Positions 35,008-37,215 of a stretch of DNA of 64,000 nucleotides are shown piece by piece (the stretch's first letter is position 1; each line of letters opens with the position of its first letter). Under the pieces are notes generated by a model that saw only the letters and a list, made by a program, of their open reading frames with translations, had not been told where the DNA came from and made no database searches. The stretch is from Escherichia phage RB49. The stretch lies in the sequence record NC_005066.1, one strand, 5' to 3'. The translations under genes were made by a program, and so were the position numbers.

Positions 35008-36222
35008 TTAAGCAGGATGCGTTTCACGAATGCGTAGAACTCGCTCTAACGTCTCTCGGTCCAGTTTATGTAACTCTTTAGACTGATACATGAAACCATT
35101 GCGAGATTCCATGCATGTGCAATCACTATATTTTTCTTCCGCTGCTGCGATCGTCTCCAGATCTTTGGCGTACTTGCTGGTTGAATAAACTTCTCGATCA
35201 CGCCACTCTAACCCAGCCTCATTGAATTTAACAATCTCGTCAAATACCCACCATCCAATGTAGATAAATGAAGTTTTGCGCCACGGGATCGGGTGTACGT
35301 AACGAAACATTTTAACAACTTCCATTGAACATTTTCGGCTTGTACTTGCTGCAACTTCTACTGTTTCATCTTCGATCTGTTGATATAGTTTAGCAACACA
35401 CCAGAATTTGGCTGTGTCATCGTAAGTAGCACTCTCTTTGAACAGATGACCGTCTGGAGTGATAGAAAATCCTTCCAGTGCTTCGCCGACCTCACTACCG
35501 ATCAGAGTCGGTGACAGTTGCCCTTCGCGCTGCAAATACCAGTTATATTTGATCGTCAAATTAGGCATACCGCTAGAATCGCCTACAATGTCCTCTGACA
35601 CAACATAATTAAGTGAGATCTCATTACCTAGTGCCACGGTCTTTGATTCCACCACATCCTGATCTACGTTCATTGTTGCCAGCATGATTTTAGTCGATGC
35701 GCTAGCGGCTGAATCTTCCGACTCTCCCCACACTTTTACAGTATACACGCCGTTTTTATCTGCTGTAAATTCTTGGATCGTAATATCCTGTGTTGTGTCT
35801 ATAACGTCTTCGCCCTTACTCCAACTATAATGTAGTTCATAGTTGTCTGCTGGAGTCTTCCCACCAGAAAATTTTACTGTTGCATGTAATTCTACGTCTG
35901 TTTGTGATGATACGTAGAAATGCTGCGGTTCGGTGATATTTACGATTAACTCAGCTTCTTCCATGAGGAAAACTTCAGATTCTACTGATGTCATCGTATC
36001 GGTATCTTGTACCGTGACTTTATAGCTACCCGCATTTTCACTTGTTGCGTCTGCTACAGTTAGCGTAGCTGTGTTATTTTCATGTGGTTGGTCGTCTTTT
36101 GTCCATGTATATGTCAAATTGCTGGGTAATGGTTCGTCACCCGCTACAGTCGCTGTTAAGGTGAAACCATCTCCAGCAAGAAAACATCTTTTGTTAGATT
36201 GTATTGATACTGTGAAAGCCAT
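35008..36222 (-). CDS. hoc: Hoc, highly immunogenic outer capsid protein (Ig-like domains plus capsid-binding C-terminus)
   Basis: 404 aa; repeated Ig-like segments (YTWTKD...AGSYKVTV), C-terminal GWWVFDEI...ESRNG as in T4 Hoc. Confidence 0.8.
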   Translation of the reverse strand: MAFTVSIQSNKRCFLAGDGFTLTATVAGDEPLPSNLTYTWTKDDQPHENNTATLTVADATSENAGSYKVTVQDTDTMTSVESEVFLMEEAELIVNITEPQHFYVSSQTDVELHATVKFSGGKTPADNYELHYSWSKGEDVIDTTQDITIQEFTADKNGVYTVKVWGESEDSAASASTKIMLATMNVDQDVVESKTVALGNEISLNYVVSEDIVGDSSGMPNLTIKYNWYLQREGQLSPTLIGSEVGEALEGFSITPDGHLFKESATYDDTAKFWCVAKLYQQIEDETVEVAASTSRKCSMEVVKMFRYVHPIPWRKTSFIYIGWWVFDEIVKFNEAGLEWRDREVYSTSKYAKDLETIAAAEEKYSDCTCMESRNGFMYQSKELHKLDRETLERVLRIRETHPA

Positions 36223-36391
36223 ATAAAGCCACTCCCATCGAAAATCCGAATTTAATTAATTGAAATAGTTGATTGTCATCAACCAGATAACCATTGCGAG
36301 ATTCCAATACATGAGTATTAGAATAGTGATGCAACGAGGCCGAAATAGTATCGATCTCGTCTGGGTATTTGTTCTGTTTGATGTAATACAT
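36194..36391 (-). CDS. short ORF resembling the Hoc C-terminal tail (possible duplicated fragment or pseudogene)
   Basis: KYPDEIDTISASLHHYSNTHVLESRNGYLV parallels hoc KYAKDLETIAAAEEKYSDCTCMESRNGFMY; no convincing RBS. Confidence 0.3.
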   Translation of the reverse strand: MYYIKQNKYPDEIDTISASLHHYSNTHVLESRNGYLVDDNQLFQLIKFGFSMGVALYGFHSINTI

Positions 36392-36486
36392 TGATTTTGT
36401 TAGACATGTAGTATCCTCTTTTTAATTGCATAACGGAACTACAATTAAAATTATAACAAATATTTCACAACTTTTATCACCCAAAA

Positions 36487-37215
36487 TTACTTGAGTGTGT
36501 GGAATTGGCTATGTTTAGTCTCTCGCACCTTGACAGACCCATCGCGTTTGATATAATAGATCAGTGACTTGAGGGTGTCGTGTACATACGCGTGCGGGAA
36601 ACGCTCTGGATACTTCTTCCAATCTGGAGTATTAACGATCCAGTCGAAAATCCACCACGGGCAGGAGTAGTAACCACGACCGCCACCGATCAAGCAAATG
36701 GTCGGACGGAAGCCAGTAAGATCGCAAAATGAATCAGTGTCATGTGCTGGGGAACGATGTTCTGCTTCGTCAGAGAAAATGTTGGCTACCGGAGATTCCA
36801 CTTTAACTTCCGGTACATCTACAACTTCAATTGTAACTGGTACTGTGTGTGGTTTGGCTTCTTCTACAACTTCAATTGTAATTGGTTCTTCTTTTTGTTC
36901 TGGTTCTTTCATTGCTTCAACCAGAGACGGATCAACTTCGTCGAATACCACTTTATCATCTACGGTGTCTGCTGCCAGAATAAGATCGTTAATACTGGTT
37001 CCTTCTGCCGGAGTTTCTTCTTCCATTTCGGAAGCCAGTTTAGTTAATTCGGTTTCTACGAACTCGATCATGTTCTCTAGTGATAAAGTCTTTTTGACCT
37101 TAATATCAAATTGTTTTGCGTAGTCAGCTAATTCTGTTTTAGCTGTTTTCTGTGCTTCTTTGTCGTCGGACGCCGCAATAGCGCGGAGTTCTTCGAAATA
37201 TTCTTTATCAAACAT
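36487..37215 (-). CDS. Inh-like acidic protein with Hoc-like WW capsid-binding motif
   Basis: 242 aa; acidic low-complexity N-terminal two thirds; C-terminal CPWWIFDWI; position of T4 inh next to hoc. Confidence 0.5.
   Translation of the reverse strand: MFDKEYFEELRAIAASDDKEAQKTAKTELADYAKQFDIKVKKTLSLENMIEFVETELTKLASEMEEETPAEGTSINDLILAADTVDDKVVFDEVDPSLVEAMKEPEQKEEPITIEVVEEAKPHTVPVTIEVVDVPEVKVESPVANIFSDEAEHRSPAHDTDSFCDLTGFRPTICLIGGGRGYYSCPWWIFDWIVNTPDWKKYPERFPHAYVHDTLKSLIYYIKRDGSVKVRETKHSQFHTLK

What the first reader, a model, noticed from the sequence alone, without database searches (positions are those of the whole stretch)
36194..37215. Hoc-like capsid-binding sequence motifs outside hoc
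The 242 aa acidic protein upstream of hoc ends with CPWWIFDWIVNTPDWKKYPE, resembling the Hoc capsid-binding segment GWWVFDEI. The next 65 aa ORF mirrors the Hoc extreme C-terminus (KYPDEIDTISA...ESRNGYLV versus KYAKDLETIAA...ESRNGFMY). This suggests a duplicated or exchanged capsid-binding module, possibly a second decoration protein or a decayed hoc duplicate.
Basis: seen in the sequence. Interest (0 to 1): 0.5.

Follow-up and report, generated by a model that had tools for sequence, protein, structure and literature searches.

The report
Hoc-type capsid anchor reused; hoc relic
In this RB49-like T4-type phage, the head-protease inhibitor Inh ends in an old, diverged copy of the domain that anchors the decoration protein Hoc to the capsid, and the neighbouring 65-codon ORF is the dead remnant of a second, long hoc gene that some sister phages still carry intact.

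Summary
Both resemblances are real, but they are two unrelated things, not two halves of one module.

**Inh.** The last ~75 residues of the 242-aa Inh are a complete homologue of the Hoc capsid-binding domain.
- Profile-profile comparison of 12 Inh against 10 Hoc domains from different T4-like genera: 98% probability, E 3e-13. Column-shuffled controls scored 11 +/- 2.5 against 69.
- Identity is a uniform ~21% in every phage, so this is an ancient paralogy, not a recent exchange.
- I found no mention of it in the Hoc structure paper or in three T4 head reviews, and Pfam files the domain separately as Phage_Inh_C.

**The 65-aa ORF.** It is an accidental reading frame across the relic of a second hoc gene ("hocL", 847 aa).
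- hocL lies intact between inh and hoc in 6 of 57 Krischvirus records.
- The window keeps codons 1-12 and 812-847. About 2.4 kb is missing and the frame is shifted.
- The old stop codon is now CAA and the terminator is lost.
- Close relatives carry stop codons in this frame.

Capsid binding by Inh is inferred, not shown.

The parts
36487..37215 (-). inh, inhibitor of prohead protease gp21 (242 aa): helical N-domain, long acidic disordered linker, C-terminal domain
   Evidence: phrog_1051 E 7.5e-76. Relatives carry PF26097 Phage_Inh_N and PF26098 Phage_Inh_C. tblastn finds it in 1421 phage records. AF2 model: aa 1-66 helical (pLDDT 81-91), aa 67-160 below 50, aa 180-242 at 77-88.
36490..36726 (-). 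Inh C-terminal domain (aa 164-242), a homologue of the Hoc capsid-binding domain
36637..36660 (-). PWWIFDWI (aa 186-193), start of helix 1, equivalent to T4 Hoc W309-W310...D313
   Evidence: [WY]W is invariant in 12 Inh and 10 Hoc sequences. Fokine et al. 2023 describe W309/W310 as gp23 contacts.
36508..36522 (-). E-T-K-H-S loop (aa 232-236) between the last two strands, equivalent to the Hoc ESRNG loop. It is ETRNS/ESRNS in all other genera sampled.
   Evidence: Alignments. The Hoc loop contacts all six gp23 subunits, and mutations in it affect binding.
36414..36420 (-). AAGAGGA ribosome-binding site of the former hocL gene
   Evidence: Same sequence and spacing precede the intact 847-aa gene in JK32 and L023.
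36372..36407 (-). hocL relic, 5' piece: codons 1-12 (MSNKINVLHQTE). Reading on in this frame gives a 29-aa ORF that ends at 36318.
   Evidence: Aligns to the start of intact hocL. Phi1-type relatives keep 72 nt more.
36367..36376 (-). Deletion junctions: CAGAA (36376-36372, the 72-nt deletion between CAGAA repeats) and CAAAT (36371-36367, junction of the ~2.3-kb deletion)
   Evidence: Comparison with Phi1 and with intact L023. 2396 nt of hocL are missing in all, and 2396 mod 3 = 2, so the 3' piece is out of frame.
36263..36371 (-). hocL relic, 3' piece: codons 812-847 (KYPDEIDTISASLHHYSNTHVLESRNGYLVDDNQLF), the last helix and two strands of the HocL capsid-binding domain. This equals residues 8-43 of the 65-aa ORF.
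   Evidence: 87% DNA identity to the JK32 hocL 3' end. Coordinates.
36260..36262 (-). Former hocL stop codon, TAA in intact genes and CAA here, which lets the 65-aa frame run on
36223..36259 (-). Former hocL-hoc spacer. The intrinsic terminator hairpin of intact relatives (GCCGACCTTCGGGTCGGC-TTTT) is mostly deleted.
   Evidence: A terminator is found in JK32 at L014 3631-3648 and none in the window. Alignment gaps.
36194..36391 (-). The 65-aa ORF of the finding. It is an accidental frame: residues 1-7 are out-of-frame hocL 5' codons, 8-43 are the HocL C-terminus, and 44-65 read through the old stop, the spacer and the hoc start.
   Evidence: No ribosome-binding site precedes its ATG. The frame is broken in MIZ6 (TAG at codon 6) and in all Phi1-type genomes (two stops, no ATG). 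JSE has ESRNG changed to EYRNG.
35008..36222 (-). hoc (404 aa): three Ig-like domains plus a capsid-binding domain
   Evidence: Residues 1-304 are identical to PDB 3SHS (RB49 Hoc). Residues 296-381 match the T4 Hoc C-domain, E 1.5e-11. phrog_1149 E 5.9e-83.
35059..35310 (-). Hoc capsid-binding domain (about aa 305-388), the reference copy in this window

Best explanation
Two separate things lie next to hoc.

(1) Inh is a three-part protein: a helical N-domain, a long acidic disordered linker, and a C-terminal domain. The C-terminal domain is a complete, old paralogue of the Hoc capsid-binding domain, with the same order of strands and helices, the WW at the start of helix 1, and an E-[ST]-R-N-[SG] loop between the last two strands. 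It is present in Inh of every T4-like genus sampled, and inh usually sits immediately next to hoc, so it most likely arose by an ancient tandem duplication of the module. This much is shown. Inferred: the domain docks Inh onto gp23 capsomers, and the linker and N-domain then carry out the annotated gp21-protease-inhibiting activity, which I did not test or find documented. Several Hoc contact residues are replaced, so the docking geometry or lattice state is probably not the same as for Hoc.

(2) The 65-aa ORF is not a gene. Krischviruses originally had two hoc genes in tandem, a long one (hocL: 847 aa, a string of Ig-like domains plus a capsid-binding domain) and the short hoc. In the lineage of this window a deletion of about 2.3 kb that is not a multiple of three removed hocL codons 13/42 to 811. 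A further 72-nt deletion occurred between CAGAA repeats. The old stop mutated to CAA and the terminator was lost. The 65-aa frame is what happens to be open across this wreck.
For: **Inh**
- hhalign of 12 Inh C-domains against 10 Hoc binding domains from 9-12 genera: 98%, E 2.9e-13. Without the window sequences: E 7.6e-14. Shuffled controls reached at most 20.3 against a real score of 69.3.
- A global hhalign run covers 78 of 81 columns. Plain MAFFT gives the same register.
- The AF2 model of Inh has E182-185, H187-195, H210-225, E228-232 and E238-241 at pLDDT 77-88.
- Shared between the families: an aromatic at position 304, [WY]309, W310, D313 (D in 7 of 12 Inh, otherwise E or Q), E355, S/T356, R357 and N358 (roles).
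- inh and hoc are adjacent in RB68, moha, KpV477, Octan, Acj9, IME13, myPSH1140 and LPCS28.

**Relic**
- An intact 846-848-aa gene lies between inh and hoc in JK32, Brandy, G2248 and UPWr_E1, and in metagenomic contigs L018-L021 and L023.
- It carries Ig domains and a capsid-binding domain, and matches Hoc by BLASTP at E 3e-26.
- The window spacer aligns to it in two blocks only.
- State in 57 records: 6 intact, 12 Phi1-type, 39 window-type or similar.
- The frame is disrupted in MIZ6 and in Phi1-type genomes.
Against: - Capsid binding by Inh is untested.
- Hoc contact residues Y293, H295, R300 and W306 are not conserved in Inh.
- In this window the key loop is ETKHS rather than ETRNS.
- The AF2 alignment was shallow (12 sequences) and whole-chain confidence is low (pLDDT 64, pTM 0.33).
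- Three T4 head reviews do not list Inh among prohead or head components. The unexpanded-head paper mentions no extra or unassigned density anywhere in its text (term search).
- For the relic, the order and number of the small deletions (9, 33 and 72 nt) cannot be resolved from the data.
Confidence: 0.85

Rival explanations
1. The Inh C-domain has the Hoc fold but no longer binds the capsid. It has been re-used for something else, for example binding gp21 or the scaffold, and the shared motifs are kept for folding only.
For: Four Hoc contact residues (Y293, H295, R300, W306) are replaced in all Inh sequences, while Inh has its own invariant residues: a Pro at the 292 position, Arg at 354 and Ser at 359. 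R357-D313 is described as an intramolecular pair that shapes the loop. Reviews do not list Inh as a capsid component.
Against: The conserved residues include the surface-exposed WW and the Asn of the loop, which contact gp23 in Hoc. These are held across genera that share only ~21% identity with Hoc.
Confidence: 0.3
2. The 65-aa ORF is a functional small protein, for example a mini decoration protein or a competitor for the Hoc site.
For: It is open in the window and in several relatives (KFS-EC, JSE, phiS). It forms its own PHROG (phrog_32100, E 3.5e-50), and some genome records annotate it.
Against: It holds only the last 36 residues of the binding domain, without strands 1-2 or the WW helix. 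Its ATG has no ribosome-binding site and lies out of frame inside old hocL codons. Its tail is read-through of a mutated stop into the hoc start. MIZ6 has a stop at codon 6 and 12 Phi1-type records have two stops and no ATG. The apparent conservation reflects 96-98% DNA identity among these genomes.
Confidence: 0.04
3. The Inh tail and the 65-aa ORF are two halves of one gene split by a sequencing frameshift.
For: The two lie in order on the same strand, about 95 nt apart.
Against: Inh ends at the same conserved C-terminus in every genus and already contains the whole domain. The gap contains the hocL ribosome-binding site and start codon. Dozens of independently sequenced genomes show the same arrangement.
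Confidence: 0.01
4. The Inh-Hoc resemblance is chance or convergence on short motifs (WW, RNG).
For: Pairwise BLASTP in this phage finds only an 8-residue match, E 0.057.
Against: The profile-profile score lies about 23 sd above column-shuffled controls and covers the whole domain. The predicted fold independently picks the Hoc C-domain as the single best PDB match.
Confidence: 0.03
5. There was a recent exchange or gene conversion of the binding module between hoc and inh in this lineage.
For: The genes are adjacent. In IME13 the two copies share VPYW[IV]HDWM.
Against: Same-phage identity (21.2%) equals cross-phage identity (21.1%), p 0.43. The window pair is the least similar at 14%.
Confidence: 0.03

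Closest known systems
Hoc C-terminal capsid-binding domain (T4 Hoc residues 281-376; PDB 8T1X/8T9R; Fokine et al. 2023, PMC10385173)
   Same: [quoted passage not shown] The relic ORF encodes the last 36 residues of such a domain.
   Different: Inh lacks the Hoc sheet-surface contact residues (Y293, H295, W306) and R300. It has a shorter helix 1-2 connection and a longer helix 3. It carries an acidic linker and a helical N-domain instead of Ig-like domains. Binding to gp23 is unproven.
Pfam PF26098 Phage_Inh_C / PF26097 Phage_Inh_N; PHROG 1051 'minor head protein inhibitor of protease'
   Same: The 242-aa protein is an ordinary full-length member.
   Different: In the precomputed hits visible here, the Hoc and HocL proteins next door list only Ig families and not Phage_Inh_C. 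These libraries therefore appear to treat the Inh tail and the Hoc anchor as unrelated. I could not read the Pfam entry text.
Phages with two Hoc proteins (Serratia phage Muldoon 1174 aa + 314 aa; Enterobacter phage PG7), described by Fokine et al. 2023
   Same: Krischviruses JK32, Brandy, G2248, UPWr_E1, SSG23 and SFHK24 have a long (846-848 aa) and a short (about 404-413 aa) Hoc in tandem, both ending in the binding domain.
   Different: In the window and in most Krischvirus records the long copy has been deleted, leaving only its two ends.
Decay of hoc in other T-even phages (T2 record MH751506)
   Same: hoc is dispensable and is found broken: in T2 it is split into at least three ORFs while inh next to it is intact.
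   Different: T2 shows frameshifts in the only hoc gene. Here a large internal deletion removed the second copy.

Membership tests
Hoc capsid-binding domain superfamily (candidate: Inh aa 164-242) | Sequence-profile similarity over the whole domain | tested here: met
   hhalign 98%, E 2.9e-13. The global mode aligns 78 of 81 columns. Shuffled controls reach at most 20.3 against 69.3.
Hoc capsid-binding domain superfamily (candidate: Inh aa 164-242) | [quoted passage not shown] | tested here: met
Hoc capsid-binding domain superfamily (candidate: Inh aa 164-242) | [quoted passage not shown] | tested here: met
   W187-W188 in the window. [WY]W in 12 of 12 Inh sequences.
Hoc capsid-binding domain superfamily (candidate: Inh aa 164-242) | Conserved ESRNG loop between strands 3 and 4 | tested here: inconclusive
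   E-[ST]-R-N-[SG] in 11 of 12 Inh sequences. The window and other Krischviruses have E-T-K-H-S.
Hoc capsid-binding domain superfamily (candidate: Inh aa 164-242) | Sheet-surface and loop contact residues Y293, H295, R300, W306 | tested here: not met
   Replaced by T/N/K, variable residues, a gap, and T/S respectively in Inh.
Hoc capsid-binding domain superfamily (candidate: Inh aa 164-242) | Binds the centre of expanded gp23* hexamers | not testable with these tools
   Needs binding assays or cryo-EM.
Inh (inhibitor of prohead protease gp21) | Full-length match to the family, with conserved synteny between uvsW and hoc | tested here: met
   phrog_1051 E 7.5e-76 over residues 1-242. 45% identity to T-even Inh. 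The uvsW-inh-hoc order is seen.
Inh (inhibitor of prohead protease gp21) | Inhibits gp21 | not testable with these tools
   The activity is taken from the GenBank annotation of the T4 gene. No paper describing it was in the searchable library.
Hoc decoration protein (candidate: the 65-aa ORF) | Ig-like domain(s) plus a complete capsid-binding domain | tested here: not met
   Only HocL residues 812-847 remain. No Pfam hit.
Hoc decoration protein (candidate: the 65-aa ORF) | Reading frame conserved in close relatives, with its own translation start signals | tested here: not met
   Stops in MIZ6 and in Phi1-type genomes. No ribosome-binding site.
Pseudogene remnant of hocL (candidate: 36260-36420) | Collinear DNA homology to both ends of an intact gene in sister genomes, with a frame-breaking internal deletion | tested here: met
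   Two alignment blocks at 87-88% identity to JK32. 2396 nt missing (mod 3 = 2). Former stop now CAA.

The most novel reading that the evidence does not exclude
Inh is a capsomer-centre-binding protein, a second natural ligand of the gp23 hexamer that uses a Hoc-type anchor tuned to a different lattice state. For example, it might sit on the unexpanded prohead, where Hoc cannot bind, or compete with Hoc on expanded heads. Protease control would then be tied physically to the state of the shell. This would put an overlooked protein into the T4 head assembly pathway and give a second, orthogonal display anchor for T4 nanoparticle engineering.
Probability: 0.2. Interest if true: 0.7.

Novelty: new member of a known kind. 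Interest (0 to 1): 0.45.

Why it matters
The Hoc anchor is the handle used to display antigens on T4 heads, and its 2023 structure paper reported no structural relatives in the PDB. If Inh carries the same domain in every T4-like genus sampled, two things follow. First, there is a concrete and cheap hypothesis to test for a protein that the three head reviews I checked do not mention at all: does the Inh tail bind gp23 capsomers, in which lattice state, and does it compete with Hoc? Second, comparing the two families separates residues kept for the fold and the central loop from residues specific to Hoc docking. The relic result is housekeeping, but useful. Two 'hypothetical protein' families in phage databases (phrog_32100 and phrog_19377) are fragments of a deleted long hoc gene and should be annotated as a pseudogene. 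It also shows that Krischviruses are polymorphic for a second, eight-to-nine-domain Hoc fibre.

Tried and rejected
- **Pairwise BLASTP, Inh against Hoc in the window:** too weak to decide (E 0.057).
- **Local Pfam copy:** it has no Inh or Hoc-anchor model.
- **Two large homologue searches with Inh:** both returned lists saturated with close relatives. They served only to build a shallow alignment.
- **Inh profile against 1.84 billion representatives:** 120 hits. The ten I inspected were Inh-like or fragments, and none was a recognisable Hoc. HMM-to-sequence search does not bridge the two families.
- **Test for co-evolution or gene conversion between Inh and Hoc of the same phage:** negative.
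- **IMG/VR scan with the 65-aa ORF:** only two loci. One attempt failed because the query was too short.
- **Literature on Inh:** nothing useful. Miller et al. 2003 and Sathaliyawala et al. 2010 are not held.
- **gp21 cleavage motifs (L/I-x-E) in the Inh linker:** I looked by eye, found nothing convincing, and make no claim.
- **Programmed +1 frameshift from the 29-aa frame into the Hoc-like frame:** considered and rejected. The product would be 12 + 36 residues of a half-domain, and the junction is simply a deletion scar.
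Full report
**What the window is.** The region is 98.3% identical to phage RB49, and 57 Krischvirus records match it. The first 304 residues of the 404-aa ORF are identical to the crystallised RB49 Hoc fragment, PDB 3SHS. On the minus strand the order is inh (36487-37215, 242 aa), a 265-nt spacer holding the 65-aa ORF (36194-36391), then hoc (35008-36222). uvsW is divergent on the plus strand. The 242-aa protein is a standard Inh: phrog_1051 at E 7.5e-76, and relatives carry Pfam Phage_Inh_N and Phage_Inh_C.

**Checking the observation.**
- The 65-aa ORF matches the Hoc C-terminus by BLASTP at 14/39 identities, E 3e-8.
- It also hits three Hoc PHROG profiles and a Hoc binding-domain profile at 96% probability, E 2e-9.
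- Inh against Hoc in this phage gives only WWIFDWIV/WWVFDEIV, E 0.057, so this half needed more than a pairwise test.

**Inh carries a full Hoc-type capsid-binding domain.**
- I collected inh-hoc regions from twelve further T4-like phages spanning Tequatrovirus, Mosigvirus, Karamvirus, Jiaodavirus, Pseudotevenvirus, Slopekvirus-like, Acajnonavirus, Lazarusvirus, Tulanevirus, Cinqassovirus and Nanhuvirus.
- Laid side by side, the Inh tails and the Hoc anchors share a pattern over about 75 residues: aromatic-x3-[PG]-[WY]-W-[IV]-x-[DQE]-[WE]-[IM], then DW[KR], a leucine-rich helix, and [IV]-x-E-[ST]-R-N-[GS].
- hhalign of 12 Inh C-domains against 10 Hoc domains gives 98% probability, E 2.9e-13. 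Leaving out the window's own sequences gives E 7.6e-14.
- 200 column-shuffled Inh alignments scored 11.2 +/- 2.5 (maximum 20.3) against 69.3 for the real one. A reversed alignment scored 9.3.
- In global mode 78 of 81 columns align, and MAFFT alone finds the same register.
The Hoc ESRNG loop corresponds to the last residues of Inh (RETKHS here, RETRNS elsewhere), not to KRDGS.

**Structural check.**
- An AlphaFold2 model of the window Inh, built from a 12-sequence alignment, shows a confident helical N-domain (aa 1-66), a disordered acidic linker (aa 67-160), and a C-domain at pLDDT 77-88.
- The C-domain runs strand, helix starting at WW, helix, strand, loop, strand.
- Foldseek also ranks that chain first of 350,542, but not significantly (E 0.74, target TM 0.47).
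- An HMM of full-length Inh searched against all PDB sequences has T4 Hoc as its best hit, E 0.096, in the same register.

**How old and how similar.**
- Using the T4 Hoc contacts described by Fokine et al., the two families share the aromatic at 304, [WY]309, W310, D313 (D in 7 of 12 Inh sequences, otherwise E or Q), E355, S/T356, R357 and N358.
- Inh does not share Y293, H295, R300 or W306. It has its own invariant Pro, Arg354-equivalent and Ser359-equivalent.
- Krischvirus Inh is unusual in having K-H for the R-N of the loop.
- Identity between Inh and Hoc domains is 21.2% for pairs from the same phage and 21.1% for pairs from different phages (permutation p 0.43). There is no sign of recent exchange, gene conversion or lineage-specific co-variation.
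- inh lies directly next to hoc in most genera. An ancient tandem duplication is therefore the simplest origin. That is inference.

**What this suggests for Inh.**
- Shown: homology and a predicted common fold.
- Inferred: the domain docks Inh on gp23 capsomers. Because several Hoc docking residues differ, it probably docks in a different geometry or lattice state.
- Against the inference: three T4 head reviews do not list Inh among prohead or head proteins, and a term search of the unexpanded-head paper finds no mention of extra or unassigned density.
- I put about 0.4 on capsomer binding and 0.3 on the domain having been re-used for another partner.
- I found no published statement of the Inh-Hoc link. 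The Hoc structure paper never mentions Inh, and its BLAST census of 650 homologues describes only Hoc-like fibres and one lipase fusion. The Hoc proteins beside Inh show no Phage_Inh_C hit in the precomputed Pfam data. I could not consult the Pfam entry text or the older T4 literature, so prior knowledge cannot be excluded.

**The 65-aa ORF is the wreck of a second hoc gene.**
- A tblastn search with a composite of the two small spacer ORFs found matches only in Krischviruses.
- In JK32, Brandy, G2248 and UPWr_E1, and by DNA match in SSG23 and SFHK24, an intact 2.54-kb gene lies between inh and hoc. The same is true of metagenomic contigs.
- Its 846-848-aa product ("HocL") has a string of Ig-like domains and a canonical binding domain. 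It aligns with the short Hoc at E 3e-26.
- The window's spacer aligns to JK32 in just two blocks: the inh end, ribosome-binding site and first codons of hocL, and then the last ~120 nt of hocL through the hoc start.
- Against the closest intact relative (L023) the window keeps hocL codons 1-12 and 812-847. 2396 nt are missing, which is not a multiple of three, so the 3' piece is +1 out of frame.
- Phi1-type genomes keep 72 nt more. The window type differs from them by a deletion between two CAGAA repeats, and both types share the same 3' junction. That implies one large deletion followed by a smaller one.
- The old TAA stop is CAA here, and the terminator hairpin present in JK32 is gone.
- The 65-aa frame therefore consists of seven residues of out-of-frame 5' codons, 36 residues of the HocL C-terminus, and 22 residues of read-through into the hoc start.
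- Its ATG has no ribosome-binding site. The good site serves the old hocL start, which now gives a 29-aa frame.
- The 65-aa frame is broken by TAG at codon 6 in MIZ6 and by two stops in all Phi1-type genomes. JSE has mutated the key Ser of ESRNG.
- Of 57 records, 6 have hocL intact, 12 are Phi1-type and 39 are of the window type or similar.

**Verdict.** The relic is ordinary gene decay. The Inh-Hoc domain homology is well supported, apparently unreported, and turns an obscure protein into a testable capsid-binding candidate. Its function remains inference.

Noticed in passing
window 36530-36557, + strand: A perfect sigma-70 consensus promoter (TTGACA, 16 nt, TATAAT, with TG) lies antisense inside the 3' end of inh and points towards uvsW (start 37271). 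The same site is conserved in JK32 (L014 958-931).
   Followed up: no
L014 1080-3620 (JK32); L015, L016, L017, L018-L021, L023: Some Krischviruses carry an intact long Hoc (846-848 aa, many Ig-like domains plus anchor) in tandem with the short Hoc. The genus is polymorphic for it, with 6 of 57 records intact.
   Followed up: yes
L006 4194-4685 (Aeromonas phage Aeh1 ORF232): Directly after inh lies a 163-aa protein with an acidic N-terminal half and an Inh-like C-domain ending ...VVREPRNSMFVHV. It looks like a second Inh paralogue where hoc would normally be.
   Followed up: partly
proteins P0269 (208 aa) and P0271 (161 aa); window Inh aa 2-58: The Inh N-terminal helical module also occurs at the C-terminus of otherwise different proteins, so both ends of Inh look like movable modules (phrog_3259 hit).
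   Followed up: no
proteins P0262, P0266, P0267, P0270: These are distant Inh_C-like proteins with strongly basic, lysine-rich N-termini instead of acidic ones. They lack the WW pair (IPxRVFxF) and the RN loop.
   Followed up: no
L002 4191-5174 (phage T2, MH751506): hoc is split into at least three ORFs and is unannotated in the record, while the adjacent inh is intact.
   Followed up: partly
L010 3287-3844 (Enterobacter phage myPSH1140): An unannotated 185-aa short Hoc (one Ig-like domain plus anchor) lies right after inh.
   Followed up: partly
L012 3180-3716 (Stenotrophomonas phage IME13) and L003 5210-5713 (RB43), L011 4665-4940 (Tauntaun): The IME13 Hoc-like anchor lacks the 4-residue insertion after helix 1 and reads VPYWVHDWM, almost the Inh motif. 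RB43 and Tauntaun have the anchor at the N-terminus of small proteins.
   Followed up: partly
window 36508-36522 (Inh aa 232-236): Krischvirus Inh has E-T-K-H-S where all other genera sampled have E-[ST]-R-N-[SG]. This is a lineage-specific change in the loop that is critical for Hoc binding.
   Followed up: partly
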